Source of the DNA: Patescibacteria group bacterium
GTDB taxonomy: Bacteria; Patescibacteriota; Patescibacteriia; UBA2591; UBA4787
Reading direction: 5' to 3'
DNA: 55,753 nt
Assembly: GCA_028715115.1 (NCBI GenBank)
Contig: JAQUSN010000001.1
Coordinates: forward strand, 133,314-189,066
Positions 1-48,866 of the stretch are shown here, piece by piece. A program made the translations under genes and the position numbers. The notes below the pieces were generated by a model. The model was not told where the DNA came from. It saw only the letters and a program-made list of their open reading frames with translations, and did not search any database. Within the stretch, counting starts at the first letter, position 1; each line of letters opens with the position of its first letter.

Positions 1-1344
1 CCTATCACCGTCGAACCAAATATTTCTTCTGGTTATCAGGTTAAGTTTAACGGACAAGCTGTTGATGTTAATAAGCTCGGTTCGCGCTTCCAGGTCGATT
101 ATAATTTTTCGCTAAAAAAATATTTTATCAATGACCAAAACGGACAACGAATCTTAATGACTGACCAATCCATTGAATTTGTCCCAACTAATGGGACTGA
201 TCAATTGAAATTAACAGCTGGTTCTTCTTATAACTTTTGTGGTTATTTAAAATTTGTCTATCAATCTACCAATTCGAGACTATCCATTTTAACCAATACA
301 GCCGAGTCATGTTATCCTAAATTAATCGCTCCTGTGCCAACAATAAGCCCAATCCCTCAGCCGGAAGTTTGGTGGCAAGCTATTAGTGCCGACACAAGCG
401 CTACAAGCGATTTTCGCTTTGAGCAAGAGCCGATCATAAAAGTTGGCTTACTTTATCAAACCGCTGACTCTCAAGCGAATTTGCCGTTTAAAATTCATAC
501 GCTTAATAACAAGCCATACGAACTTAGAGACGATAATAATAATTTATTGACTATGGCCACAACTGGAGACACCTTGACTGTTGATTTTGATTTTATATTA
601 AATAAAACATTTGTTGATTCAAATGGCGTTAGATTATTCTTAACCGATTCGCCGCTTCATTTTGTCGCTAGAGAACCCGAAACTATTTTTGAAATCTCTT
701 CATGGAAAAATGGCCCGTTCTGGGGCATGAATGTCAATGACAATGACTATCGCGGCAATCTAATTGTTGAGTATAATCCGAATACGGAAAGATTTTGGCT
801 AATTAACGAAATCGGCATGGAAGAATATTTGCGCGGCAACAGCGAAATTTGGGACACTTGGCCCACTGAAATGTTAAAAGCACAAATAATTGCCGCGCGA
901 ACCTATGCGCTCTTTAGATACATCAATCCAAAATATACTAATTCGCCATCGGCCGATGATGATCCGATTTTTACCGTGCGCTCTACGCAAGCCGATCAGG
1001 TTTATCGCGGCTATCAGGGAGAATTGCGCAATCCAAACATCGTTCAAGCCGCCTCTGACACGCGCGCCATGATTGCTACTTATAATAACGATCCTATCTT
1101 GGCTTATTATTTTGCCCAAACTAACGGACGAACCCGCGATTCGGTTTCGGCTGGCATGACGCGGGCACCAGTTGACTATTTAAAAGGCGTCATTGATCCG
1201 CCAGGCGAGGGCCTAACCCTAAAAGGACACGGCGTAGGACTACCGCAAGTAGGCGGCAAGGTGGCAGCTCAACAAGGAGCAAATTTTGCCCAAATTTTAA
1301 AATATTATTATCAAGGCATTCAAATTAAAAAGCTCTATCCATAA
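1..1344 (+). CDS. SpoIID/LytB-domain protein (5' end outside window)
   Basis: Frame 1 is open from base 1 into the 157..1344 ORF. The C-terminal half carries SpoIID-like motifs (AQIIAARTYAL, YYFAQTNGRT, GHGVGL). Confidence 0.7.
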   Translation, partial: PITVEPNISSGYQVKFNGQAVDVNKLGSRFQVDYNFSLKKYFINDQNGQRILMTDQSIEFVPTNGTDQLKLTAGSSYNFCGYLKFVYQSTNSRLSILTNTAESCYPKLIAPVPTISPIPQPEVWWQAISADTSATSDFRFEQEPIIKVGLLYQTADSQANLPFKIHTLNNKPYELRDDNNNLLTMATTGDTLTVDFDFILNKTFVDSNGVRLFLTDSPLHFVAREPETIFEISSWKNGPFWGMNVNDNDYRGNLIVEYNPNTERFWLINEIGMEEYLRGNSEIWDTWPTEMLKAQIIAARTYALFRYINPKYTNSPSADDDPIFTVRSTQADQVYRGYQGELRNPNIVQAASDTRAMIATYNNDPILAYYFAQTNGRTRDSVSAGMTRAPVDYLKGVIDPPGEGLTLKGHGVGLPQVGGKVAAQQGANFAQILKYYYQGIQIKKLYP

Positions 1345-5797: not shown

Positions 5798-5883
5798 TCC
5801 GCCAACTGGCGGAGAACCCCTGGCCTAAATGGGCGACCAATCCGCCAACTGGCGGAGAACCCCTGGCCTAAATGGGCGACCAA
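5798..5883. repeat. Perfect 43-bp tandem duplication (2 copies) that includes the tRNA-Val 3' end
   Basis: TCCGCCAACTGGCGGAGAACCCCTGGCCTAAATGGGCGACCAA at 5798..5840 and again at 5841..5883. The last 11 nt of each unit are the tRNA-Val 3' end (TTGGTCGCCCA on the minus strand). Confidence 0.9.
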
Positions 5884-5943
5884 GGAATCGAACCTTGTTT
5901 TCTTCCGTGTAAAGGAAATGTTTTGCCATTAAACTAGTCGCCC
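5873..5943 (-). tRNA. tRNA-Val (anticodon TAC)
   Basis: The reverse complement is GGGCGAC-TA-GTTT-AATGGCA-AAAC-A-TTTCC-TTTACAC-GGAAG-AAAA-CAAGG-TTCGATT-CCTTG-GTCGCCC-A. Confidence 0.9.
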
Positions 5944-5974: not shown

Positions 5975-6008
5975 TTTCTCAAGAAAAACGGGGCGCAGAA
6001 CGCGCCCC
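5975..6008 (-). terminator. Intrinsic terminator ending the tRNA-Ala transcription unit
   Basis: GGGGCGC-GTTCT-GCGCCCC hairpin followed by GTTTTTCTTG on the minus strand. Confidence 0.6.
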
Positions 6009-6160
6009 GCCCCAAGGAGGTTCTCATGCCTAGGGGGCTGGGAACCCGCGGTCACACTCCATGATTAACCTCGGGAAGATCTCTCAAACGTGAGTTTGGG
6101 CCCTGACGTTCTAGAGAAGTCGGGACTCCGACTGCAACGTCGGAGAGATACGAGGCAAAA
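6009..6160 (-). other. GC-rich structured segment co-transcribed downstream of tRNA-Ala (unclassified RNA?)
   Basis: About 150 nt between the tRNA-Ala 3' end and the terminator. Contains the hairpins CTCCGAC-GTTGCA-GTCGGAG and TCTCTAGAACGT..ACGTTTGAGAGA. No convincing ORF on the minus strand. Confidence 0.3.
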
Positions 6161-6359: not shown

Positions 6360-6388
6360 AATTGTTAACAACCAAACGAGAGGTAATC

Positions 6389-6790
6389 TTGTCAAACAAA
6401 GTAATCCGCGCGCTCTTAGTGCTTATGCTCGTTGCAGCTCTCTGGGCGCTAGCCAGGGGAATTGCGGGGGCGACCAGTCGTCTCGACAACTCGTGCCTAG
6501 GTTCAGAAGTGACCATCTTCGCCCTGATAACCGCGATTGTCTGGATGGTCGCACCCAATGCAAACGAGGCAACGCCTAAAGGCGTAGCCTGGACCATTAT
6601 CGGCACCATACTGCCATTCGCTTGGGTGCTGGCCCAGACGTTCTTCTTCCGCAGTCAACCGTTTGAGGTTAATCGATCGCTCTGGGCGAGCTTTATCGTC
6701 GCCGTAATCGGCTACTGGCTCATCTTTCTGGGCGGCACCTTTGCTCTGCCCGAACAAAAAGAACAGGTAGCGGCACTGTCGCCGCCGTAG
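6389..6790 (+). CDS. GC-rich orphan small membrane protein (about 4 TM)
   Basis: TTG start 5 nt after GAGAGG. 133 aa, hydrophobic (LLVLMLVAALWALA, IFALITAIVWMV, IIGTILPFAWVLAQTFFF, FIVAVIGYWLIFLGG). Bracketed by a promoter and a terminator. The tracked start at 6362 lies at the predicted transcription start. Confidence 0.5.
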   Translation: MSNKVIRALLVLMLVAALWALARGIAGATSRLDNSCLGSEVTIFALITAIVWMVAPNANEATPKGVAWTIIGTILPFAWVLAQTFFFRSQPFEVNRSLWASFIVAVIGYWLIFLGGTFALPEQKEQVAALSPP

Positions 6791-6823
6791 ATAAACCAAG
6801 GAGGCATATGTCTATCCGTGCAG

Positions 6824-6858
6824 GCCCTCCGACACTAGTCGGAGGGCTCTATTTTTTT
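6824..6858 (+). terminator. Intrinsic terminator
   Basis: GCCCTCCGAC-ACTA-GTCGGAGGGC followed by TCTATTTTTTT. Confidence 0.7.
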
Positions 6859-6859
6859 A

Positions 6860-6887
6860 TTGACAAAAATTACACAAAGAATAAAAT
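6860..6887 (+). promoter_or_regulatory. Promoter of GC-rich cassette 1b
   Basis: TTGACA (6860-6865), 16 nt, TAAAAT (6882-6887). Confidence 0.5.
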
Positions 6888-6907
6888 TTTATTTATAAGG
6901 AGGCTTG

Positions 6908-7126
6908 ATGCAAATGCGAGTGTATGAAGGACGATGTCCGGTGTGCCGAATGCAGGAGATTCTTGAGGCCACCTCCTCTGAAGTGGCCCGAGTAACTCTC
7001 TATCATTTTCACCGGGAACATTATTCGTTTTGCCCTGTCCCCAGACAATGGCTCGTGATCAGAGAAGCTGCCAGGCGCAACCGCCTAATCCCCAGACTTA
7101 CCTCTCTTGCATCGTCGACCGTCTAA
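6908..7126 (+). CDS. GC-rich orphan 72-aa Cys/His-containing protein
   Basis: ATG 4 nt after TAAGGAGG. Contains CPVC...HFHREHYSFC, a possible small zinc-binding fold. A terminator follows immediately. Confidence 0.45.
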   Translation: MQMRVYEGRCPVCRMQEILEATSSEVARVTLYHFHREHYSFCPVPRQWLVIREAARRNRLIPRLTSLASSTV

Positions 7127-7158
7127 AGACCCGGGTCAGACCCGGGTCTTTTATTTTT
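7127..7158 (+). terminator. Intrinsic terminator
   Basis: AGACCCGG-GTCAGAC-CCGGGTCT followed by TTTATTTTT. Confidence 0.7.
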
Positions 7159-7164
7159 AACAAA

Positions 7165-7207
7165 TAAAAATTAAAAAAGAAAAGAGGGCGGGAGACGGCT
7201 CCCGCCC
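7165..7207 (-). terminator. Intrinsic terminator, convergent with the previous one
   Basis: GGGCGGGAG-CCGT-CTCCCGCCC (minus strand) followed by TCTTTTCTTTTTTAATTTTT on the minus strand. Confidence 0.7.
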
Positions 7208-7274
7208 TAGTAGAAACGGAGATTCACATCCCTCCAAAGAAATGCGAAACTCCTTCTGTCCTCGCTCGGCGCCG

Positions 7275-7886
7275 CTAGGTGATGCGGTAGTTCTTCGTCG
7301 AGTTCAGACCGGACCCCTGGTTGTTCAGTGCGACGGCTTCCTTGATGTCGGTGACCAGCATGGCGACGCCCGTGTACAGCGGACCAGTGGCGACAATCGG
7401 GCACAAGTAGCCCGTACCTTCCTGTGCGATCATGGCCTGTGTAGATGCGGCGTTCGTGCCCCAGCTCGCCATTTGCTCTCGGTTGGTTGCGCCGGCCTGG
7501 ATCTGGATCGTCGGGTTGGTCGCGATGGTCTTAAGGTTGGCCTGCGTCGGCCAGATGACGACATCGGACCTCATCGCCAGTAGACATGGCTCGTTTGAAG
7601 CGGATGCGCTGCTGTTGTGGATGAATACGGTCCTGGCTGCCATCGTCGAGGTGCCCGGCCCGTGGTTCATGTTGATCGCGACGGCGAGAACGTCCATGGA
7701 AGGGGGACTGTTCACTGCCGCAGCCGTCGATGTGGACACGATGACCTGGTTCTGGTTGCCCGCGTCGTTCTCGAACGCCGATGACGAAGTGCTCGATGTG
7801 TTAAGCGCGACCTCGCTCCTCGGAGGTGACGCCGCGACCATCGACACCAGTACCAGGCAGCAAGCTAGCGTGAGAAGTTTCCTCAT
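7275..7886 (-). CDS. GC-rich orphan secreted protein (Ala/Ser/Thr/Asn-rich)
   Basis: ATG 6 nt after AAGGGAG. Signal peptide MRKLLTLACCLVLVSMVAA. 203 aa and low complexity. A terminator lies 68 nt downstream. Confidence 0.55.
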   Translation of the reverse strand: MRKLLTLACCLVLVSMVAASPPRSEVALNTSSTSSSAFENDAGNQNQVIVSTSTAAAVNSPPSMDVLAVAINMNHGPGTSTMAARTVFIHNSSASASNEPCLLAMRSDVVIWPTQANLKTIATNPTIQIQAGATNREQMASWGTNAASTQAMIAQEGTGYLCPIVATGPLYTGVAMLVTDIKEAVALNNQGSGLNSTKNYRIT

Positions 7887-8109
7887 CACGCACTCCCTTC
7901 TTCCCTTTGTGAGGGAATGCCACCAAAGGTCATCCCGCGCAGGGATAGGTGGCGCTTAGGATGTTAAAGCTGCCTCTCTGCGGTCAACCACGCATGGCTG
8001 ACATCTGACATCGTTCCTCCGCGAGGCAAACGATGCTAGATTGCATTGATTATAAAATAACAGATTAATAAAATTTGTAAAGTTATTGGTGGGGAAAATT
8101 AATAATTTT

Positions 8110-34691: not shown

Positions 34692-34720
34692 TTGACAAAT
34701 TTTCATTTTTTTTGTATAAT
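34692..34720 (+). promoter_or_regulatory. rRNA operon promoter
   Basis: TTGACA (34692-34697), 17 nt, TATAAT (34715-34720), 250 nt upstream of the 23S. Confidence 0.6.
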
Positions 34721-34973: not shown

Positions 34974-38098
<3,125 letters not shown>

Positions 38099-38156
38099 AA
38101 GGATCGAAAAATAAAAAATATTATTTTAACGTACACAAATTAAAACGCGCGCAAAG

Positions 38157-38272
<116 letters not shown>

Positions 38273-39622: not shown

Positions 39623-40423
39623 ATGGAAATCCGCTTGATTCAAAGCAAGTCCGCCCTGCATAAATCAAAATTAGCCGGCGGCGGATATACTCTCAACCCC
39701 TATTCTGGCTGCCCGCATGGCTGCCAGTATTGTTATAATCAAAAATTTTTTAACATTATCCATCCCGACTGCCCCTGGGGTAAATATTTTGACGTCAAAA
39801 CAAATTTCCCAGAAATTTTAGCCAAAGAAATCTTGGCCAAACCCAAAGCCAACGTATTTTTTTCAACTATTACCGATCCCTACAACGCCCTGGAGAAAAA
39901 ATACCAGATCACTCGCCGTTCTTTGGAGCTGCTGCTGGCTAATGGTTGGCGAGCTTCTCTTTTAACCAAATCTGATCTGGTTTTGCGGGATTTGGATTTA
40001 TTCAATAAATACCGAGCTAAAATAGACGTCGGTTTTACTATTACTTCGGTTGATGATAAAATCGCCAGAATTCTCGAGCCTAACGCGCCAAGCCCGACCC
40101 GTCGATTAGCTGCCTTAAAACAACTACACAAACATAAAATAAAAAATTATATTTTTGTCGCGCCAATTATTCCGCACCTAACTGACATTGAAAAAATTTT
40201 CCAGGCAGCGAACGGTTTTTGCGATGAAATTTGGTTTGATTCATTTAATACTAAGCTGGTTAACTGGCCAGCCTGGTTAAGGATCGTTAAACAAAATTTT
40301 TCAAATTTATTAGACTTTTACAAAGATTATGCCTTGAATAAAAAATTATTTGAGAAAGAAATAAAAAACAAAATAATAAATTTAGCGCAGAAATATAAAA
40401 TAAAAACCAAATTTATTTTTTAA
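39623..40423 (+). CDS. SPL-family radical SAM protein (SplB / DNA-repair-photolyase-like, COG1533)
   Basis: 266 aa. LNPYSGCPHGCQYCY (CX3CX2C) near the N-terminus. No SPASM-type extra cysteine cluster. Confidence 0.65.
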   Translation: MEIRLIQSKSALHKSKLAGGGYTLNPYSGCPHGCQYCYNQKFFNIIHPDCPWGKYFDVKTNFPEILAKEILAKPKANVFFSTITDPYNALEKKYQITRRSLELLLANGWRASLLTKSDLVLRDLDLFNKYRAKIDVGFTITSVDDKIARILEPNAPSPTRRLAALKQLHKHKIKNYIFVAPIIPHLTDIEKIFQAANGFCDEIWFDSFNTKLVNWPAWLRIVKQNFSNLLDFYKDYALNKKLFEKEIKNKIINLAQKYKIKTKFIF

Positions 40424-40479
40424 TTTTAAAAACAAAAAGCACATTCCTTCTCGCGCTTTTTAATATACATATTTTACTG

Positions 40480-40507
40480 TTGACAAAATGCCGATCTTTG
40501 CTATCAT
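40480..40507 (+). promoter_or_regulatory. Promoter of the GC-rich unit 40.5 kb
   Basis: TTGACA (40480-40485), 16 nt, TATCAT (40502-40507). An overlapping TATAAT sits at 40507-40512. Confidence 0.5.
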
Positions 40508-40514
40508 ATAATAG

Positions 40515-40805
40515 TATTTGAAAGGAGCGTTCTTGGGCAAAACATGTCCACCTGGCGAGAGACTCATCTCTCGTCCGCCCTTCCACAAAGGCACAGATTG
40601 GCGTCGCCAGCTCAGACCAGGGCATGGCAGTCGCCCGGGCAACGGTCCGTCGCGCATACCGCGACCGATCGAAACTCGATCCGAATCTGAGAGTCGTATC
40701 TCAAGGAGGTAAGTAAGATGCTCTTGCGTCCGAAAGCGCGCGACCAGCCGCATTAAGCAAGGGTCACCCTCTCGGGTGAAGCCTACGCGCGGTTTTCCTC
40801 ACATC
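40515..40805 (+). other. GC-rich promoter-to-terminator unit: either a structured RNA or two coupled small ORFs (59 aa and 12 aa)
   Basis: Many local hairpins (CGAGAGA/TCTCTCG, GTCGCG/CGCGAC, GATCGA/TCGATC, TGAGA/TCTCA). AAAGGAG-5nt-TTG opens a 59-codon Pro/Arg/Gly/Ser-rich ORF (40533..40712). Its stop lies inside AAGGAGGTAAGTAAG-ATG, which precedes a 12-codon ORF (40718..40756). Confidence 0.3.
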
Positions 40806-40838
40806 GAACCCCCTCTCCCAGGGGGTTCGTTTATTTTA
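40806..40838 (+). terminator. Intrinsic terminator
   Basis: GAACCCCCT-CTCCC-AGGGGGTTC followed by GTTTATTTTA. Confidence 0.7.
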
Positions 40839-41080
40839 TAAAATTATATTAATCAATATTATTTAAACCATACTCATATTAATAGGCCGAAGAAATAACT
40901 CTAAACTAAAAAAATTTGCGAAATTACGAATATAGAATTCGGGGTTGCAAGTGGGATAAACCTATCTACTCGTTCCTCTTTTTCTTTTTTTAATTAAATT
41001 TCTTTGTTTGTGTCGTAAAACGTGAGTGCAAAATTTGTGGATTATGTTTTAATTTTTATAAAACCCGATTAACCCAATAA

Positions 41081-41100
41081 AATGTTCCACGTGGAACATT
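41081..41100. promoter_or_regulatory. parS (ParB/Spo0J binding site), copy 1
   Basis: AATGTTCCACGTGGAACATT is a perfect 20-bp palindrome. The core TGTTCCACGTGGAACA fits TGTTNCACGTGNAACA. Confidence 0.75.
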
Positions 41101-41235
41101 CACTCTGGTTAATACGAAAAACAAGGGATTATTGTGAAATTCTGGATCTATTTTGAATTTAAAAACAAGAATTTAGCTCTGCTTAAAATCTTAAAAATAT
41201 TTTATCTTTTACTTTTTATTTTCTTAATTCTATTA

Positions 41236-41255
41236 AATGTTCCACGTGGAACATT
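41236..41255. promoter_or_regulatory. parS (ParB/Spo0J binding site), copy 2
   Basis: Identical 20-bp palindrome, starting 155 bp after the first. Confidence 0.75.
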
Positions 41256-41376
41256 CTTAAATTAAAAATAAAATTCATTAATTTTGTCTGGCGATATGCT
41301 AAAAATTGAAACATCATTTTACGACGCCAAATATTTATAAATAAGCCTGATCAAAAAGTTAATAAAAAACAAAGGA

Positions 41377-41404
41377 TTGACAAATATAAAAATTATGCTA
41401 TCAT
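41377..41404 (+). promoter_or_regulatory. Promoter of paralog cassette A
   Basis: TTGACA (41377-41382), 16 nt, TATCAT (41399-41404). Confidence 0.5.
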
Positions 41405-41420
41405 TAAAAATGATAGATAT

Positions 41421-41463
41421 CTACTCGGAGAACGATCTCTAAGAAGAGGTCGACAGCGAGTAG
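41421..41463 (+). promoter_or_regulatory. Conserved 43-nt leader stem-loop, copy A
   Basis: CTACTCG-GAGAA-CGATCTCT-AAGA-AGAGGTCG-ACAG-CGAGTAG. Same architecture as 42174..42216. Confidence 0.5.
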
Positions 41464-41494
41464 GGTCTGTCGGAATTAAGCACTAGGAGGTTTT

Positions 41495-42067
41495 GTGAGT
41501 ATAGCGACAGTTCACCCCTTAAAACAGGGTTCAGTCCAAAAATGGCTCAGGCGATTCTGGATGAATCTGCTCCCCTGGAACAGAGCCTGGAAAAAGTTCA
41601 TAAGCGAAGATCACCTGTGGGGCGGTTTATTCTACCTGAAGAACCACTACATCGACCCGATCAATTGCCCGGAAGAAGTCTCGCAACTGCTTCGGCTCCT
41701 TACGGCCTTACGTGCAGAAGTAGGACACATTCCGGAGCTCCGGAAGATCCAGAATCAGCTGCTTTGGAATCCCAACCCCCAGAGCAAGCACCGCAAGCTG
41801 GCCGACTTGATTGGCCAGGTAATTGTCCTGCTTCAGTCGTATCGCGCCCTTGCCGATAAGTGCGGCATCCAATCGCCCAGGCCCGGCATATTCCTCGAAG
41901 CCGACAATGTCATAATTGCCGAGAGTTCAATTAAGTACCTGCGCAGTCTCGGCAAGACCGATTCGAGGAGAGTTTCGGCCAATTTGTCGGCCCGGACCTT
42001 CCGGAGAAACGAGATGTGGTCGATGGTCCCCATCATCGGCACCATCAACGAACTGCTCAACTCATGA
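41495..42067 (+). CDS. GC-rich orphan protein, paralog A (190 aa)
   Basis: GTG start in AGGAGGTTTTGTG. Shares IPEL.K....LLWNP...SKH..LA......I.VLQ.Y...A..C.I..P with paralog B. Codons mostly end in G or C. Confidence 0.6.
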   Translation: MSIATVHPLKQGSVQKWLRRFWMNLLPWNRAWKKFISEDHLWGGLFYLKNHYIDPINCPEEVSQLLRLLTALRAEVGHIPELRKIQNQLLWNPNPQSKHRKLADLIGQVIVLLQSYRALADKCGIQSPRPGIFLEADNVIIAESSIKYLRSLGKTDSRRVSANLSARTFRRNEMWSMVPIIGTINELLNS

Positions 42068-42072
42068 CCATT

Positions 42073-42116
42073 GCCCGCATCAGGTTCAATCCCTGATCGC
42101 GGGCTTTTCTTTTTTA
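42073..42116 (+). terminator. Terminator with tRNA T-loop-like hairpin
   Basis: GCCCGCATCAGG-TTCAATC-CCTGAT(C)GCGGGC, a 12 bp stem with 1 bulge, followed by TTTTCTTTTTT. Confidence 0.65.
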
Positions 42117-42122
42117 AAAATA

Positions 42123-42150
42123 TTGACAAAAGACAAAAATCTGCTATAAT
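42123..42150 (+). promoter_or_regulatory. Promoter of paralog cassette B
   Basis: TTGACA (42123-42128), 16 nt, TATAAT (42145-42150). Confidence 0.55.
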
Positions 42151-42173
42151 ATATTTAACAAACCAACAGACAA

Positions 42174-42216
42174 CTGCTCGGAGAACGATTTCCTAGGAGA
42201 AATCGGCAGTGAGCAG
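42174..42216 (+). promoter_or_regulatory. Conserved 43-nt leader stem-loop, copy B
   Basis: CTGCTCG-GAGAA-CGATTTC-CTAGGA-GAAATCG-GCAG-TGAGCAG. Confidence 0.5.
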
Positions 42217-42235
42217 CTCTGTTAAAGGAGGTTTT

Positions 42236-42847
42236 GTGAAGCTACATCCGTCAATCATCAGGATCTGGAAGCGAACTTGCCGCTGGCTCAAGGAGATCTG
42301 GCCATTCCTGTCTCCCTGGGGCCGCGCTGTTGTTCGCTTCACCGAAGAAGCTCCAAGCGGTAAAGAAATACCGTTGTGGAACATGCTCTTCACTCTCGTG
42401 CGCACCTACCTCGAGGCCAAGACTCCCATCGGCTTCCCTGAAGACCAAGAAGAACTGATGAGACTACCTACCGTGCTCTACTACTTGCGCATGCTAATGC
42501 TGCGAATCCCTGAGCTCGAGAAGGTCAGAAAAGGGCTGCTATGGAACCCTTTCTACGAAAGCAAGCATCTGCAGCTGGCGCGCCAGGTTGAGCGAATTAT
42601 CTACGTACTACAGCGGTACGACGATTACGCCGCTGTATGCGAGATTGAGGTGCCGAAAGAACTCCCCCAGCTCCACAGCACCAAAGTGCTAAGCCGCACC
42701 ATCGTTCAACTAAGAAGCCTTGAAAAGGGCGCCGACAACGATCGAGCCAAGGCCAATAACCTCTGCCACGACTTCATGCGACATCAGCTGTACGAACTGA
42801 TAGCCGCCGTTAACGCGATAAACCAGCTTCTTCACCCCGAGTCATAG
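42236..42847 (+). CDS. GC-rich orphan protein, paralog B (203 aa)
   Basis: GTG start in AGGAGGTTTTGTG. The tracked start at 42209 lies inside the leader stem. Paralogous to 41495..42067. Confidence 0.6.
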   Translation: MKLHPSIIRIWKRTCRWLKEIWPFLSPWGRAVVRFTEEAPSGKEIPLWNMLFTLVRTYLEAKTPIGFPEDQEELMRLPTVLYYLRMLMLRIPELEKVRKGLLWNPFYESKHLQLARQVERIIYVLQRYDDYAAVCEIEVPKELPQLHSTKVLSRTIVQLRSLEKGADNDRAKANNLCHDFMRHQLYELIAAVNAINQLLHPES

Positions 42848-42888
42848 CCCTGGCGGATTCATCAGGATCGGCCGATCCTGAAATGTCG

Positions 42889-42935
42889 CCCGCGGGATAA
42901 TTAGGTTCAAATCCTACCTGCGGGCTTTTCTTTTT
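42889..42935 (+). terminator. Terminator with tRNA-like acceptor plus T-arm architecture
   Basis: CCCGCGGG-ATAAT-TAGG-TTCAAAT-CCTA-CCTGCGGG-C followed by TTTTCTTTTT. Preceded by the palindrome CAGGATCGGCCGATCCTG (42863..42880). Confidence 0.6.
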
Positions 42936-42936
42936 G

Positions 42937-42970
42937 AAAAAGACATCTAATTTTAGATGTCTTTTTGTTT
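42937..42970. terminator. Bidirectional AT-rich hairpin terminator (paralog B / ychF)
   Basis: AAAAAGACATCTAA-TT-TTAGATGTCTTTTT, flanked by T/A runs on both strands. Confidence 0.55.
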
Positions 42971-42988
42971 TGTATTCTAGATTCTAAT

Positions 42989-44056
42989 TTATGCATTAGC
43001 CCTAATCTCAATCACGTCGCCATCTTTAATTGTGTATGTCTTGCCTTCGGTGCGAACTAAACCCTTTTCGCGAGCCTCAATATAACCATGCGCCTTTAAT
43101 AAATCTTGCCAAAAAATAACTTCAGCGCGCACAAAGCAACGTTCAAAATCAGTATGAATCACGCCGCCGGCTTGTGGCGCCATACTACCTCGTTTCAAGG
43201 TCCAAGCTCGCGTTTCATCCGGCCCAGTTGTTAAAAACGTAATCAAATCTAATAACTGATAAGATTTTTGAATTAATTTGTCTAAACCCGACATGGCTGG
43301 TAAACCGAGGGCGATTCTGTCTTCTGTTTTCATGTCCGCTGCTTCAAGTTCGGCCACCACGTCAACAATTAAATACGACCAACTGTGTTCGTTAAAAACA
43401 TCTTTTATTTTTTGCGACACCTCTGATTCGGATCCGTTTAATAAATATATTCTCGGCTTGGTGGTTAAAAGCTGATAGGTTTTTAAAATTTGCTTTTCTT
43501 CTTCGTTTAAAATCACTTCGGATAAAATCTGACCATTATCTAAAATCTGCCGCACTCGTTTTAAAACTTCAAATTCTTTAAGCGTCTCTTTGCGGCCACT
43601 TTTTATTTCATGTTCCAGGTCTACCAAGCGCTTATTGATAGTTTCCAGATCTTTTAAAATTAATTCTGTATCTAAAATTTCTTTATCAGCCACTGGGTCG
43701 ATTTCTTTTTGAGTGTTGACGATTTTATCATCCAAAAATGCTCGCAAAACATAGACAATAGCGTCGGTTTCACGAATATTGGCCAAAAATTTATTGCCCA
43801 ATCCTTCGCCTTGGCTAGCGCCCTTAACCAGACCAGCAATGTCAACAAATTTTACCGTAGTAAAATTTTTCTTAGCTGACTTAGTCAGCTCGGCTAATTT
43901 ATCAACGCGTTCGTCAGGCACAGCCACCACACCAACATTTGGATCAATGGTGCAAAAAGGATAGTTCGCGCAATCAACCTGCTTTTTAGTAATAGCTTGA
44001 AATAGGGTAGACTTGCCCACATTGGGCAGCCCCACTATGCCGATAGAAAATGACAT
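42989..44056 (-). CDS. ychF: Ribosome-binding ATPase YchF
   Basis: 355 aa. GIVGLPNVGKSTLF Walker A, DIAGLVKGAS, C-terminal TGS-like region. Confidence 0.9.
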   Translation of the reverse strand: MSFSIGIVGLPNVGKSTLFQAITKKQVDCANYPFCTIDPNVGVVAVPDERVDKLAELTKSAKKNFTTVKFVDIAGLVKGASQGEGLGNKFLANIRETDAIVYVLRAFLDDKIVNTQKEIDPVADKEILDTELILKDLETINKRLVDLEHEIKSGRKETLKEFEVLKRVRQILDNGQILSEVILNEEEKQILKTYQLLTTKPRIYLLNGSESEVSQKIKDVFNEHSWSYLIVDVVAELEAADMKTEDRIALGLPAMSGLDKLIQKSYQLLDLITFLTTGPDETRAWTLKRGSMAPQAGGVIHTDFERCFVRAEVIFWQDLLKAHGYIEAREKGLVRTEGKTYTIKDGDVIEIRANA

Positions 44057-44128
44057 GTCAAAATTATTAAAAATTAAGAACTAAAATATTATATAGATTT
44101 TTCTCTCTTTCGTCAACTTTTCATAAGA

Positions 44129-44157
44129 TTGACAAATTCATTAAAATGCGCTATTAT
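44129..44157 (+). promoter_or_regulatory. Promoter of GC-rich cassette C
   Basis: TTGACA (44129-44134), 17 nt, TATTAT (44152-44157). Confidence 0.5.
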
Positions 44158-44232
44158 ATAGCAAGGTTCGTGAAGCTGGGGTCGCTCGGTTTTCGCAAAC
44201 CTGTCTGGAGGCACCTTAACAAGGAGTTTACC

Positions 44233-44805
44233 GTGAGAATCGTGATCTTGACTATGGCGGTCTTTGTTGTCATAGCAGGTGCTATGATCGCATGGGCTTG
44301 GCCAATCGTCACCCAGCCAAATGCCGGAGACGAAAAACCGCAGAGCGCTATCACGCACTTCCGCAATGTACTCAACACGACCGCGAACAACAGCTTAACC
44401 CTGGTACAGCTCAAGGATACCATGACCAGGCTGGGCCAACTGCCCATGGCGCGGCAACTCGGATGGTCTGGGTATCATCTCGACTCACTGCTATCGAATT
44501 ACGCCAAGAACCTGGCCGTGAACTACGGCGATACTATCAAGGCTGTCCTGGGAGAACTGACTGCCGGGAAGACCGATACTGCTACTTTTTGTGAAGTACT
44601 GCAGGCTTTCTCTACCCGCATCGCCTATCTACGCGTGGAATTGAGTATCGCCTGCCCGGCAATGACCATGTTACCAGACGATAGTCTCTACCCCTACTCC
44701 CAGGTTTGGGACGTTTGGGAGAAAACGAGAACGACATGGGTGCAGCGTTTTTTCCGCACATTGTCTCTCGGGCCGCGCATTAGCGCGGCCCTTATCTTTT
44801 CCTAA
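44233..44805 (+). CDS. GC-rich orphan protein with N-terminal signal anchor (190 aa)
   Basis: GTG 6 nt after AAGGAG. N-terminus VRIVILTMAVFVVIAGAMIAWAW. The tracked ATG at 44146 lies upstream of the -10 box. Confidence 0.55.
   Translation: MRIVILTMAVFVVIAGAMIAWAWPIVTQPNAGDEKPQSAITHFRNVLNTTANNSLTLVQLKDTMTRLGQLPMARQLGWSGYHLDSLLSNYAKNLAVNYGDTIKAVLGELTAGKTDTATFCEVLQAFSTRIAYLRVELSIACPAMTMLPDDSLYPYSQVWDVWEKTRTTWVQRFFRTLSLGPRISAALIFS
44770..44800 (+). terminator. Intrinsic terminator overlapping the last codons of cassette C
   Basis: GGGCCGCGC-ATTA-GCGCGGCCC followed by TTATCTTTT. Confidence 0.6.
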
Positions 44806-44926
44806 AAAACCATTGCGGTTTTTCTAATTTTAGTTATAATAAAGGGTGTTCTGTCTCAACAGAGCCTACTCTTAATCTGCGCGCTTGGCAATAATCTCTA
44901 TTTAAGTCAAAAGGTTAAATTAATCT

Positions 44927-45196
44927 ATGACCCTTTCTCTTTTTGTCATTCTTGTAATTTATCTTATTTTCTGCGGCGTAACTCTGTTGTTTTTTTTAGC
45001 CAACCTATACCACCTTATCCGATTCGGGGCGCTTAATTTAGTGACTCTTTTATTTTCTTTCATTTCCATTTGCGGCGTCATTCTGTTGGTTTATTTTTCT
45101 TACCAATACATCTCCGGTATTGATTGGGGTCAAACTTTTACTATTTTTGATGTCATTCGTTTTAAAATGCCTTCCATACCAAAAATTAACCTCTAA
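44927..45196 (+). CDS. Small membrane protein (2-3 TM)
   Basis: 89 aa, hydrophobic, AT-rich native composition. Lies 3 nt upstream of the next gene. Confidence 0.45.
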   Translation: MTLSLFVILVIYLIFCGVTLLFFLANLYHLIRFGALNLVTLLFSFISICGVILLVYFSYQYISGIDWGQTFTIFDVIRFKMPSIPKINL

Positions 45197-48056: not shown

Positions 48057-48731
48057 ATGCCTCACATATTTTTTGACGAAAGTGGTCAATTTACAACACA
48101 TAATAATGAAAACTATTTCATCGTCGCATCTTTTACCGTCGGGAATCCCAGACGAACAGAAAAACAATTTAAATCTTGGCAGAGGAGAAAATTTCCCAAA
48201 AAACTGCGCTATCAACCAGAAATTAAATTTTCTGAAGTTGAGATTAAAGACGAACTTCGTATGGCAACTCTAAAATTTATTTCCGATCTTGATGTTAGGA
48301 TTAATTTTTCCTATTTATTAAAACAAAATATTCCTGGCAATTATCATAAAAATAAAAAACTACAAAGCGGACTCTTATATACCAACATCATCGGAGAAAC
48401 AGTAGAAATGTATTTGCCCTTAGCCGATAAAGAACTTCGAGTTTTTTGCGATGAACGACATTTAAAAGGAATTAAAAAACCAATATTTGAGAAAACCCTA
48501 ATTAATAGATTGTTACCGCAATTACAAAAAGGTACAAATATTCAAATTGAGATGATTGATTCAAAAGAAAATGCTAATATCCAAATCGTCGATTGGATTG
48601 CCGGGGCACTAGCTGCTTTTTTGGAGAAAAAAGAACTTGGTAGCGGATTTTATCAAATCTTACAAAACAATATCTTAAAAGAAGGCAAAGAATTATTTAA
48701 AGATTATTGGAGCAATAAATATCAAAATTAA
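48057..48731 (+). CDS. DUF3800-family protein
   Basis: 224 aa. The N-terminal IFFDESG motif is typical of DUF3800. Confidence 0.55.
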   Translation: MPHIFFDESGQFTTHNNENYFIVASFTVGNPRRTEKQFKSWQRRKFPKKLRYQPEIKFSEVEIKDELRMATLKFISDLDVRINFSYLLKQNIPGNYHKNKKLQSGLLYTNIIGETVEMYLPLADKELRVFCDERHLKGIKKPIFEKTLINRLLPQLQKGTNIQIEMIDSKENANIQIVDWIAGALAAFLEKKELGSGFYQILQNNILKEGKELFKDYWSNKYQN

Positions 48732-48770
48732 AGATAAAAACCCTGATTTGTTAACCAAGGTTTTTATCGA

Positions 48771-48866
48771 GAAGTAGCGTCTTATAAAATGGTTATTCTG
48801 CGGCTTAAGTCTCGGATACTCCGAGGGAACACCACAGCATTTTATAAGCTATTATTGCATACTTCT
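48771..48866 (+). other. Nested three-level stem structure in the DUF3800-rfbB spacer (unclassified)
   Basis: GAAGTA/TACTTC, CTTATAAAATG/CATTTTATAAG and CTCGGA-TAC-TCCGAG are nested. Confidence 0.3.

What the first reader, a model, noticed from the sequence alone, without database searches (positions are those of the whole stretch)
41377..42935. Tandem paralogous orphan genes sharing a 43-nt leader stem-loop with compensatory base changes
The products of 41495..42067 and 42236..42847 align by eye. Compare IPELRKIQNQLLWNPNPQSKHRKLADLIGQVIVLLQSYRALADKCGIQSP with IPELEKVRKGLLWNPFYESKHLQLARQVERIIYVLQRYDDYAAVCEIEVP. They also share an N-terminal HP..W.R...PW.RA...F pattern.

Both are preceded by a 43-nt element of identical length and architecture:
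- CTACTCG-GAGAA-CGATCTCT-AAGA-AGAGGTCG-ACAG-CGAGTAG
- CTGCTCG-GAGAA-CGATTTC-CTAGGA-GAAATCG-GCAG-TGAGCAG

The outer stem changes A-T to G-C and the inner stem changes C-G to T-A. The internal loop GAGAA/(A or G)CAG is conserved. An identical AGGAGGTTTTGTG initiation region follows. Covariation with a conserved internal loop is the signature of a functional RNA element, such as a protein- or ligand-binding regulatory leader.
Basis: seen in the sequence. Interest (0 to 1): 0.75.

Follow-up and report, generated by a model that had tools for sequence, protein, structure and literature searches.

The report
Conserved 5' leader hairpin, orphan genes
Two neighbouring genes of unknown function in an uncultured Patescibacteria genome, plus their only known relative elsewhere, each start their mRNA with the same 60-base three-helix hairpin, which is very probably a real but very rare RNA control element whose function has not been tested.

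Summary
Genes B (41495..42067) and C (42236..42847) are true paralogs: 36% identity, E 6e-31. Each is a complete cassette with a consensus extended -10 promoter, a leader hairpin, AGGAGGTTTTGTG, the coding sequence and a homologous terminator.

The 43-nt element is the upper part of a 60-nt, three-helix hairpin (7+7+7 bp). It begins at or near the predicted transcription start.

Searches of about 15 billion proteins found one other family member, on an 1132-nt ENA metagenome contig. It carries the same promoter and hairpin. Across the three copies:
- 62 of 63 base-pair cells pair.
- 4 pairs show compensatory double changes and 6 show one-sided changes that still pair.
- The internal loop GAGAA/RCAG is invariant apart from R.
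- The terminal loop drifts.
- Wobble pairs fit only the transcribed strand.

The hairpin is 69-82% identical between copies, against 38-50% at third codon positions.

No further copy turned up in the window, in 185,579 species-representative genomes, or in the metagenome or viral collections. There is no Rfam match.

The most likely reading is a protein-recognised 5' leader that controls mRNA stability or translation. Three sequences cannot give formal covariation statistics, and the function is inferred. It is a new, very narrow member of a known kind, of modest interest.

The parts
41377..41404 (+). Promoter of gene B: -35 TTGACA (41377..41382), 16-nt spacer, extended -10 TGCTATCAT (41396..41404)
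   Evidence: Consensus scan scores 11 of 12 with TG before the -10. It is homologous to the promoters of unit A and gene C (family D1). Sequence verified.
41412..41471 (+). Leader hairpin of gene B. P1 41412..41418 with 41465..41471. P2 41421..41427 with 41457..41463. Internal loop GAGAA 41428..41432 and ACAG 41453..41456. P3 41433..41439 with 41446..41452. Terminal loop 41440..41445.
   Evidence: MFE fold, RNAalifold consensus, pair counts, covariance-model score 87.6 bits.
41485..41497 (+). Shine-Dalgarno, spacer and GTG start of gene B (AGGAGGTTTTGTG)
   Evidence: Identical 13-mer in front of both genes. The N-terminal residues encoded after this GTG are conserved in all three homologs.
41495..42067 (+). 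Gene B: 190 aa, basic (pI 10.1), predicted all-helical orphan protein
   Evidence: ORF. Paralogy. Coding signature: identity by codon position 2>1>3, and GC1/2/3 of 0.52/0.39/0.69. No family match.
42073..42115 (+). Intrinsic terminator of gene B: 12-bp hairpin with 7-nt loop TTCAATC, followed by TTTTCTTTTTT
   Evidence: Fold -21.3 kcal/mol, z -5.1. Homologous to the terminator of C and to the cut 3' end of L121 (family D4).
42123..42150 (+). Promoter of gene C: -35 TTGACA, 16-nt spacer, extended -10 TGCTATAAT
   Evidence: 12 of 12 consensus match with TG. Sequence verified.
42165..42223 (+). Leader hairpin of gene C. P1 42165..42170 with 42218..42223 (6 bp; the seventh position, 42171 with 42217, is a C-C mismatch). 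P2 42174..42180 with 42210..42216. Internal loop GAGAA 42181..42185 and GCAG 42206..42209. P3 42186..42192 with 42199..42205. Terminal loop 42193..42198.
   Evidence: Covariance-model score 80.8 bits.
42226..42238 (+). Shine-Dalgarno, spacer and GTG start of gene C (AGGAGGTTTTGTG)
   Evidence: The database protein P0002 starts at this GTG.
42236..42847 (+). Gene C: 203 aa, basic (pI 9.1) paralog of B
42856..42935 (+). 3' end of the gene C transcript: extra hairpin 42856..42887, then terminator hairpin 42888..42925 with loop TTCAAAT, then TTTTCTTTTT
   Evidence: Fold; alignment with the B terminator.
40480..40835 (+). Unit A. A homologous promoter drives a roughly 320-nt, 60% GC transcript that ends in a terminator. 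It has no long conserved ORF. It lies upstream of a B-family gene in both organisms and may be part of the same module.
   Evidence: Promoter. Fold z -5.7. No Rfam match. Partial homolog at L121 1..200 with no shared reading frame.

Best explanation
The element is a cis-acting RNA: a 60-nt, three-helix hairpin at the very 5' end of the mRNA of each B-family gene.

Shown:
- Each gene is its own transcription unit, with a consensus extended -10 promoter and an intrinsic terminator.
- The hairpin starts 0-2 nt (B and the metagenome relative) or about 8 nt (C) after the predicted start.
- Its three helices are kept by compensatory and wobble changes.
- Its asymmetric internal loop (5' GAGAA, 3' RCAG) and the four flanking base pairs are fixed in sequence.
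- The hairpin itself does not sequester the Shine-Dalgarno.

Inferred: the helices cap the 5' end, and the fixed internal loop is a docking site for a protein that sets the stability or translation of the mRNA after transcription. The most likely protein is the basic, helical product of the cassette itself, giving autogenous feedback that would co-regulate B and C because they share the same loop.

Of the 0.45 given to a protein-recognised 5' leader, roughly half is for autogenous binding. The rest is for an unrelated host factor.
For: - Structure: 21 pairs, with 62 of 63 cells paired. Four pairs have double compensatory changes (one in P1, one in P2, two in P3) and 6 have one-sided changes, nearly all to or from G-U. 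Sliding the 3' partners drops pairing to 27-48%. RNAalifold predicts the same structure on its own.
- Strand: 8 G-U cells pair only in the sense strand. The covariance model scores 81-88 bits on the plus strand and 14-17 bits on the minus strand. P1 is lost when the antisense strand of B or of the relative is folded.
- Selection: the hairpin is 69-82% identical between copies, against 38-50% at third codon positions (P 1e-5 to 4e-7). The internal loop is 89-100% identical and the terminal loop 17-67%.
- The third copy comes from a different organism, so gene conversion between the tandem paralogs cannot explain the conservation.
- Position: the hairpin lies immediately after consensus promoters.
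- Ribosome site: the Shine-Dalgarno is unpaired in the MFE folds of B and the relative. In C only its last two G's and the spacer pair weakly with the unpaired 5' tail, not with the hairpin. No U-run follows the hairpin.
- Association: 3 of 3 copies sit with this protein family and none anywhere else.
- The products are basic, with pI 9.1-10.1.
Against: - There are only three distinct sequences. The shuffle controls (3/500 and 17/500) are not probabilities, and no R-scape-type test is possible.
- The transcription start is predicted from the promoter consensus, not measured.
- The proteins have no recognisable RNA-binding domain and no structural neighbour. The AlphaFold2 model has mean pLDDT 62, and the best Foldseek match has E 0.29.
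- No mimic of the hairpin exists in unit A RNA or in the rRNA of the window, so the classical mimicry logic of autoregulation has no support.
- Exclusive association with the gene family is equally expected from simple co-inheritance of the cassette.
- The internal loop matches no named RNA 3D motif by inspection.
Confidence: 0.45

Rival explanations
1. Pure 5'-terminal stabiliser. The hairpin works only as a structural cap. It leaves too few unpaired 5' nucleotides for a pyrophosphohydrolase or for a 5'-end-dependent RNase (RNase J or E type), so it prolongs mRNA life. No specific factor reads the loop.
For: - The hairpin begins 0-2 nt after the predicted start in B and in the relative and is very stable: -31 to -39.5 kcal/mol for leader-containing segments.
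- The neighbouring orphan unit D also starts with a hairpin at its predicted +1.
- 5'-terminal stem-loops stabilise mRNA in E. coli and B. subtilis, and BsRppH needs at least 2 unpaired 5' nucleotides (review PMC3997798).
Against: - A cap needs structure only. Here the 9 internal-loop bases and the 4 flanking pairs are fixed in sequence while the terminal loop drifts.
- Copy C has about 8 unpaired nucleotides before P1.
- Whether this organism has RppH or RNase J could not be examined.
Confidence: 0.2
2. RNase III processing signal. The roughly 21-bp coaxial stack interrupted by an asymmetric 5/4 internal loop is cut by RNase III, as at phage T7 R1.1-type sites or in the E. coli rnc and pnp leaders. 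The cut removes or remodels the 5' end and so sets mRNA fate.
For: - 21 bp is about two helical turns, with an asymmetric internal loop.
- The element lies in a 5' leader, where RNase III autoregulatory and processing sites are known (PMC3997798; the T7 R1.1 architecture is from my own knowledge).
Against: - RNase III recognition depends mostly on helix geometry, so it explains the fixed loop sequence only weakly.
- No rnc gene or cleavage data were available.
- Nothing specific was tested.
Confidence: 0.12
3. DNA-level element. The inverted repeat acts as double-stranded or cruciform DNA, for example as an operator just downstream of the promoter or as a recombination site comparable to an integron attC site.
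For: - It lies at about +1 to +60 of a strong promoter, where operators can sit.
- The orphan cassettes are in tandem.
- The sense strand also folds as DNA.
Against: - The 8 G-U cells become A-C mismatches on the other strand, so pairing falls from 98% to about 86%.
- The minus-strand model score collapses.
- The half-sites would be 29 nt apart.
- There are no attC core sites (RYYYAAC / GTTRRRY) by inspection.
- Each cassette has its own promoter and terminator, unlike integron cassettes.
- No integrase gene lies near the locus.
Confidence: 0.05
4. Riboswitch or RNA thermometer. The internal loop binds a small molecule or an ion, or the helix melts with temperature, and this switches expression.
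For: - Conserved unpaired nucleotides lie between covarying helices.
- Small riboswitch aptamers of 35-45 nt exist (my own knowledge).
- The 5' strand of P3 (CUCU / UUCCU / CUCCU) could pair with the true Shine-Dalgarno by 4-5 bp if P3 opened (reading of the sequence).
Against: - There is no expression platform. The hairpin does not sequester the Shine-Dalgarno: it is unpaired in the MFE folds of B and the relative, and only weakly paired to the 5' tail in C. No terminator follows.
- The alternative pairing is far weaker than the hairpin.
- There are only 3 copies, all before one orphan family rather than before metabolic or transport genes.
- No Rfam family matches.
Confidence: 0.04
5. No function of its own. 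The hairpin is a passenger conserved through recent duplication, gene conversion or horizontal transfer of the whole cassette.
For: - The whole cassette, including the promoter and terminator, is homologous in all three copies.
- The sample is tiny.
Against: - The adjacent coding sequence has diverged to 36-49% amino-acid identity, and third codon positions are near saturation, yet the hairpin is 69-82% identical and every stem change but one keeps pairing.
- The spacer between the hairpin and the Shine-Dalgarno has diverged and carries an indel.
Confidence: 0.05

Closest known systems
5'-terminal stem-loop mRNA stabilisers (E. coli ompA and papA leaders, B. subtilis aprE leader)
   Same: A stable hairpin at, or within a few nucleotides of, the 5' end of a monocistronic mRNA. 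It is followed by an exposed strong Shine-Dalgarno.
   Different: Those elements act through structure alone. Here the internal loop and flanking pairs are fixed in sequence, the hairpin has three tiers, and one copy (C) has about 8 unpaired 5' nucleotides. No half-life data exist.
Autogenous protein-binding leader hairpins (E. coli rne 5' UTR hairpin hp2 with its conserved internal loop, ribosomal-protein leaders, the MS2/PP7 coat-protein operator hairpins)
   Same: A hairpin in the gene's own 5' region in which helices covary while unpaired loop or bulge nucleotides are invariant. The element is found only with the gene family it would control.
   Different: The products here have no known RNA-binding fold and no known primary RNA target. 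Binding is untested. There is no sequence similarity to any of those operators, and no Rfam match.
RNase III processing signals with asymmetric internal loops (phage T7 R1.1 type; E. coli rncO and the pnp leader)
   Same: About two turns of double helix interrupted by a small asymmetric internal loop, lying in a leader.
   Different: There is no evidence of cleavage, and no sequence relation. The conserved loop sequence is not a requirement of RNase III.
Small riboswitch aptamers (preQ1-I, guanidine-III size class)
   Same: Comparable size, with conserved unpaired bases between covarying helices in a 5' UTR.
   Different: There is no expression platform. The distribution is restricted to three copies before orphan genes. 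There is no pseudoknot or pocket-forming conservation in the terminal loop.

Membership tests
Any curated Rfam family (release 15) | Match to a family covariance model at its gathering score, or at least at E <= 1 | tested here: not met
   The whole window at gathering threshold gave only rRNA, tRNA and DUF3800-V. The stretch 40300..45000 at E <= 1 gave only two sub-threshold hits, both at the unit D terminator.
5'-terminal stem-loop mRNA stabiliser | Thermodynamically stable hairpin in the 5' UTR | tested here: met
   -19.7 and -15.7 kcal/mol for the 43-nt cores, and -27.7 to -39.5 kcal/mol for longer leader segments that contain the full hairpins. z is -2.2 to -5.1.
5'-terminal stem-loop mRNA stabiliser | At most a few unpaired nucleotides between the 5' end and the hairpin | tested here: inconclusive
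   The start is predicted from the -10 position only. It gives 0-2 nt in B and in L121, and about 8 nt in C. No 5'-end data.
5'-terminal stem-loop mRNA stabiliser | Removing the hairpin shortens mRNA half-life | not testable with these tools
   Needs an experiment.
Autogenous protein-binding leader operator | Structured element in the gene's own leader, with covarying helices and invariant unpaired nucleotides | tested here: met
   4 compensatory and 6 one-sided changes. The internal loop is 8 of 9 invariant and the terminal loop is variable.
Autogenous protein-binding leader operator | The gene product is an RNA-binding protein that binds the element | not testable with these tools
   The only indirect hint is the basic pI of 9.1-10.1. 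No RNA-binding domain or fold was recognised.
Autogenous protein-binding leader operator | The element mimics the protein's primary RNA target | tested here: not met
   The covariance model finds no similar site in unit A RNA, in 23S/5S rRNA or elsewhere in the window. A target outside the window cannot be excluded.
RNase III processing signal | About 20 bp or more of coaxial double helix, often with an asymmetric internal loop | tested here: met
   21 bp in three stacked helices with a 5/4 internal loop.
RNase III processing signal | Cleavage by RNase III, and presence of the enzyme in the organism | not tested
   No rnc gene was looked for outside the window, and there is no cleavage assay.
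Riboswitch | Expression platform: an alternative terminator or a Shine-Dalgarno-sequestering helix coupled to the aptamer | tested here: not met
   No U-run follows the hairpin. The Shine-Dalgarno is unpaired in the MFE folds of B and the relative. In C only its 3' end pairs weakly with the unpaired 5' tail, a helix that does not involve the hairpin.
Riboswitch | Recurrence upstream of functionally related metabolic or transport genes across taxa | tested here: not met
   Three copies only, all before one orphan family. Motif-pattern scans of genome, metagenome and viral collections gave only chance hits. Those scans required the conserved loop-flanking sequence, so diverged copies could be missed.
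Kink-turn (L7Ae-type site) | A 3-nt bulge followed by tandem sheared G-A / A-G pairs | tested here: not met
   By inspection of the loop. GAGAA opposite RCAG places G opposite G and A opposite A, and no register gives the G-A/A-G tandem next to a 3-nt bulge (sequence).
Integron attC site | Core sites RYYYAAC and GTTRRRY at the base of the hairpin, a position 3' of a promoterless cassette ORF, and an integrase nearby | tested here: not met
   The core sites are absent by inspection. The hairpin lies between a promoter and a Shine-Dalgarno, and each gene has its own terminator. No integrase is among the neighbouring genes.
Intrinsic terminator / attenuator | GC-rich hairpin followed directly by a U-run | tested here: not met
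   The hairpins are followed by GGAAUUAAGC, AAAGGAGG and AGAAUCGC. The terminator scan does not list them.

The most novel reading that the evidence does not exclude
The leader hairpin, the B-family proteins and the upstream GC-rich unit A transcript together form a lineage-restricted ribonucleoprotein or regulatory module of Patescibacteria. The basic helical proteins would be a new kind of RNA-binding protein that recognises the GAGAA/RCAG internal loop. They would use it for feedback control of their own mRNAs while acting on unit A RNA or another cellular RNA. The module would belong to a wider set of GC3-rich, strongly promoted, species-specific orphan genes in this genome.
Probability: 0.1. 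Interest if true: 0.6.

Novelty: new member of a known kind. Interest (0 to 1): 0.33.

Why it matters
If the hairpin is a protein-recognised leader, it gives an experimental handle on a protein family that currently has no homologs, no domain and no predicted fold. The RNA can be used as bait to learn what binds it.

It would also add a case of post-transcriptional control in Patescibacteria, a group in which gene regulation is almost unstudied because most members are uncultured.

The practical weight is limited. The element is known from three sequences, in one species and one metagenome fragment.

Tried and rejected
More family members (none found beyond one relative):
- Word-indexed search with B alone, then with the 3-sequence profile.
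- Full HMMER scan of 1.84 billion cluster representatives. Together these yielded one relative, P0003.
- Back-translated scans of species-representative genomes, run twice, and of IMG/VR. No hits.
- tblastn against phage records and blastn against plasmids. No hits.

More leader copies (none found):
- A tighter pattern on metagenome contigs (54 hits) and genome contigs (49 hits) gave no hit with both stems intact except L121.
- A recurrent human-gut hit lies inside an ORF.
- The viral hits score at most 27 bits, and the best lies in what reads as GC-rich coding-like sequence.
- The covariance model with filters off found nothing else in the window.
- Other assemblies of the same species (two NCBI MAGs) carry identical leaders; three Logan contigs encode the identical B protein but their leaders were not compared.

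Protein function (no result):
- Pfam, PHROGs, PADLOC, NCBIfam and PDB sequence searches all came back empty.
- The AlphaFold2 model has pLDDT 62, and Foldseek against the PDB finds no match at E <= 0.001.
- Unit D is not a paralog of B and C and has no homologs either.

Ideas rejected:
- B and C as GC-rich non-coding RNAs: codon-position periodicity and a conserved reading frame argue against it.
- Kink-turn or loop-E identity of the internal loop: rejected by inspection.
- Attenuator, attC site and DNA operator readings: see the rival explanations.
- The tRNA T-loop-like terminator loops as a tRNA mimic: the third copy departs from the T-loop consensus.
- Unit A as a known RNA: no Rfam match. 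Its conserved block occurs in no species-representative genome.
Full report
**Observation.**
- ORFs 41495..42067 (B, 190 aa) and 42236..42847 (C, 203 aa from the Shine-Dalgarno-supported GTG) align end to end. BLASTP gives 36% identity, 53% positives, E 6e-31.
- The two 43-nt elements are at 41421..41463 and 42174..42216. A one-base-offset window over the second (42175..42217) does so at -15.7 kcal/mol (z -3.5).
- The A-U to G-C change in the outer stem, the C-G to U-A change in the inner stem, the GAGAA/RCAG internal loop and the identical AGGAGGTTTTGTG are all present.

**Anatomy.** Each gene is a complete, separately transcribed cassette, and the whole cassette is duplicated.
- Each has a near-perfect extended -10 promoter: TTGACA, 16 nt, then TGCTATCAT or TGCTATAAT. 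These score 11/12 and 12/12.
- The hairpin follows, then the Shine-Dalgarno and GTG, the coding sequence, and an intrinsic terminator whose sequence is also homologous between copies.
A third, basal helix (P1, 7 bp in B and 6 bp in C) extends it to 41412..41471 and 42165..42223. The result is three stacked 7-bp helices with a 5/4 asymmetric internal loop between P2 and P3.
- The -10 hexamers end at 41404 and 42150. The predicted start is therefore 0-2 nt before P1 in B and about 8 nt before P1 in C. This is inferred from the consensus, not measured.

**A third copy.**
- A word-indexed search of 5.8 billion protein clusters found only B itself.
- A full HMMER scan of 1.84 billion representatives, standing for about 15 billion proteins, found exactly three proteins: B, C and P0003.
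- P0003 (197 aa; 49% identical to B and 40% to C) lies on an 1132-nt ENA metagenome contig, L121.
- L121 carries the same promoter, the same three-helix hairpin (423..482), a GGAGGTCTTGTG start region and the beginning of the same terminator.
- Upstream it carries a partial homolog of the window's unit A.

**Structure evidence.**
- On the three-sequence alignment A6, 62 of 63 pair cells form standard pairs.
- Four pairs show changes on both sides: G-C to A-U in P1, A-U to G-C in P2, and A-U to G-C and C-G to U-A in P3. Six show one-sided changes, nearly all to or from G-U. The single mismatch is the P1 pair nearest the hairpin loop in copy C.
- Sliding the 3' partners by 1-3 columns drops pairing to 27-48%.
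- RNAalifold predicts the identical structure with no guidance.
- The 8 G-U cells would be A-C mismatches on the other strand. The covariance model scores 81-88 bits on the plus strand and 14-17 on the minus strand. P1 disappears when the antisense strands of B and L121 are folded. The structure therefore belongs to the transcribed strand.
- The hairpin is 69-82% identical between copies, against 38-50% at third codon positions of the adjoining genes (binomial P 1e-5 to 4e-7).
- The internal loop is 89-100% identical, while the terminal loop is 17-67% identical.
- The spacer between the hairpin and the Shine-Dalgarno is diverged and carries a 12-nt length difference.
- The third copy is from another organism, so gene conversion between the tandem paralogs cannot account for this.
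- Three sequences remain too few for formal covariation statistics. The shuffle counts (3/500 and 17/500) are not probabilities.

**Distribution.** No further copy was found anywhere.
- Window: the covariance model with filters off finds no other copy.
- 185,579 species-representative genomes: 49 pattern hits, all in high-GC genomes, none with both stems intact. An earlier, looser scan was saturated with chance hits.
- JGI metagenome contigs: 54 hits, none convincing. A recurrent gut hit lies inside an ORF.
- IMG/VR: no credible hit.
- These collection scans required an exact match to the conserved loop-flanking sequence, so diverged copies could have been missed.
- Other assemblies: two NCBI MAGs of the same species carry identical leaders; three Logan contigs encode the identical B protein but their leaders were not compared.
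- Rfam 15 has no matching family.

**The genes.**
- B, C and P0003 are protein-coding. Identity by codon position is 2>1>3, and GC by position is strongly periodic (0.52/0.39/0.69 for B).
- They are basic (pI 9.1-10.1) and Trp/Arg-rich.
- They are predicted all-helical, with only moderate confidence (pLDDT 62, pTM 0.61).
- They match nothing in Pfam, PHROGs, PADLOC, NCBIfam or PDB sequences, and no PDB fold at E <= 0.001.
- The N-terminal 22 residues are conserved. This supports the GTG at 41495 over the internal ATG used in the NCBI record (168 aa).

**Context.**
- The window comes from a Patescibacteria MAG with 38.6% GC.
- Ordinary genes have GC3 of 0.25-0.45. B, C, unit D (44233..44805) and three genes at 6362..7889 have GC3 of 0.64-0.80 and their own consensus promoters.
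- Unit D is not related to B or C and is also an orphan.
- Unit A (40480..40835) has a homologous promoter. It gives a roughly 320-nt, 60% GC transcript with strong predicted structure (z -5.7), no long conserved ORF and no Rfam match. It precedes a B-family gene in both organisms.

**Mechanism.**
- What is shown: a sense-strand hairpin under selection for both pairing and internal-loop sequence, placed at the start of a strongly promoted monocistronic mRNA. The hairpin does not occlude the Shine-Dalgarno, and it is not followed by a U-run.
- This excludes an attenuator and argues against a riboswitch or thermometer with a conventional expression platform.
- Two properties point in different directions. 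The 5'-terminal position is what 5' stabiliser hairpins have: 5'-terminal stem-loops stabilise mRNAs, and B. subtilis RppH needs at least two unpaired 5' nucleotides (review PMC3997798). The invariant loop and flanking pairs are what a sequence-specific reader requires, as in the rne leader hairpin bound by RNase E (same review).
- I therefore favour a protein-recognised 5' leader that sets mRNA stability or translation (0.45). Feedback by the cassette's own basic product is the most likely version.
- A plain stabiliser (0.2) and an RNase III site (0.12; 21 bp with an asymmetric loop) are the main rivals.
- DNA-level roles, ligand sensing and no function are each at about 0.05 or less.

**Verdict.** The element is a new, extremely narrow member of a familiar kind, the structured cis-acting 5' leader. 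It is attached to a protein family with no known relatives. Interest is modest.

Noticed in passing
window 40480..40835 (homolog at L121 1..200): Unit A has a consensus extended -10 promoter and gives a roughly 320-nt, 60% GC transcript ending in a terminator. The transcript is strongly structured (MFE -131 kcal/mol, z -5.7). It has no Rfam match and no long ORF shared with its partial homolog. It lies upstream of a B-family gene in both organisms. A conserved block ends in CTCAAGGAGGTAAGT and is followed by a possible tiny ORF (MLLRPKARDQPH in the window, MYIARSRDSPPF... in L121). It is a candidate new ncRNA or a long structured leader with a micro-ORF. Its conserved block occurs in no species-representative genome.
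   Followed up: partly
window 41081..41100 and 41236..41255: The perfect 20-nt palindrome AATGTTCCACGTGGAACATT occurs twice, 155 nt apart, in the AT-rich spacer between unit A and gene B. It occurs nowhere else in the window, and no dinucleotide-preserving shuffle of the window contained two matches. The corresponding spacer of L121 lacks it. Its function is unknown; it could be a regulator site or a small inserted element.
   Followed up: partly
window 6362..6790, 6905..7126, 7275..7889 (-), 41495..42067, 42236..42847, 44233..44805: A set of small genes has GC3 of 0.64-0.80 in a genome whose other genes have GC3 of 0.25-0.45. Consensus TTGACA-type promoters sit in front of most of them. B, C and D have essentially no homologs in about 15 billion proteins; the other three were not searched. 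The origin of this composition split (foreign origin, expression-linked bias or something else) is unexplained.
   Followed up: partly
window 44129..44805: Unit D has its own consensus promoter. Its leader begins with a 39-nt hairpin at the predicted +1 (44164..44202). It encodes a 190-aa protein with an N-terminal hydrophobic helix, and the terminator lies inside the end of the ORF. It is not related to B or C and is an orphan.
   Followed up: partly
window 5798..5883: An exact 43-nt tandem direct repeat (two copies) overlaps the 3' end of tRNA-Val (5873..5943, minus strand). This looks like a duplicated tRNA 3' fragment, such as an integration scar or a local duplication.
   Followed up: partly
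window 5980..6160: A GC-rich stretch of about 180 nt lies between tRNA-Val and tRNA-Ala, with no Rfam match at gathering threshold. It may be a structured RNA co-transcribed with the tRNAs.
   Followed up: no
window 42073..42104, 42888..42925; L121 1103..1132: The homologous terminators of B, C and the relative have 7-nt loops resembling a tRNA T-loop in a G-C-closed stem (GGTTCAATCCC, GGTTCAAATCC, GGTTACATCCC). In B the stem is a 12-bp minihelix-like stack. The third copy departs from the T-loop consensus, so this may be shared ancestry only.
   Followed up: partly
window 41495 vs 41561: The public annotation of gene B (MDD2646462.1, 168 aa) starts at an internal ATG. The Shine-Dalgarno and the N-terminal residues conserved in all three homologs support the GTG at 41495 (190 aa), as called in the Logan assemblies.
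   Followed up: yes
window 48770..48866 (-) and 48057..48731 (+): A DUF3800-V RNA (82 bits against a gathering score of 37) lies just downstream of a DUF3800 protein gene, on the opposite strand.
   Followed up: no
window 34982..38272: The 23S rRNA match spans 3111 nt against a 2925-position model, which suggests about 190 nt of insertions. It is followed by 5S. No 16S gene lies next to it in the window, although a consensus promoter sits at 34692.
   Followed up: no
window 41430..41435 vs 40528..40533: AGAACG, spanning the internal loop and the start of P3 in the leader, is complementary to CGUUCU near the 5' end of unit A RNA (6-7 bp). This could be chance. It cannot be checked in L121, because that part of unit A is cut off there.
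   Followed up: no
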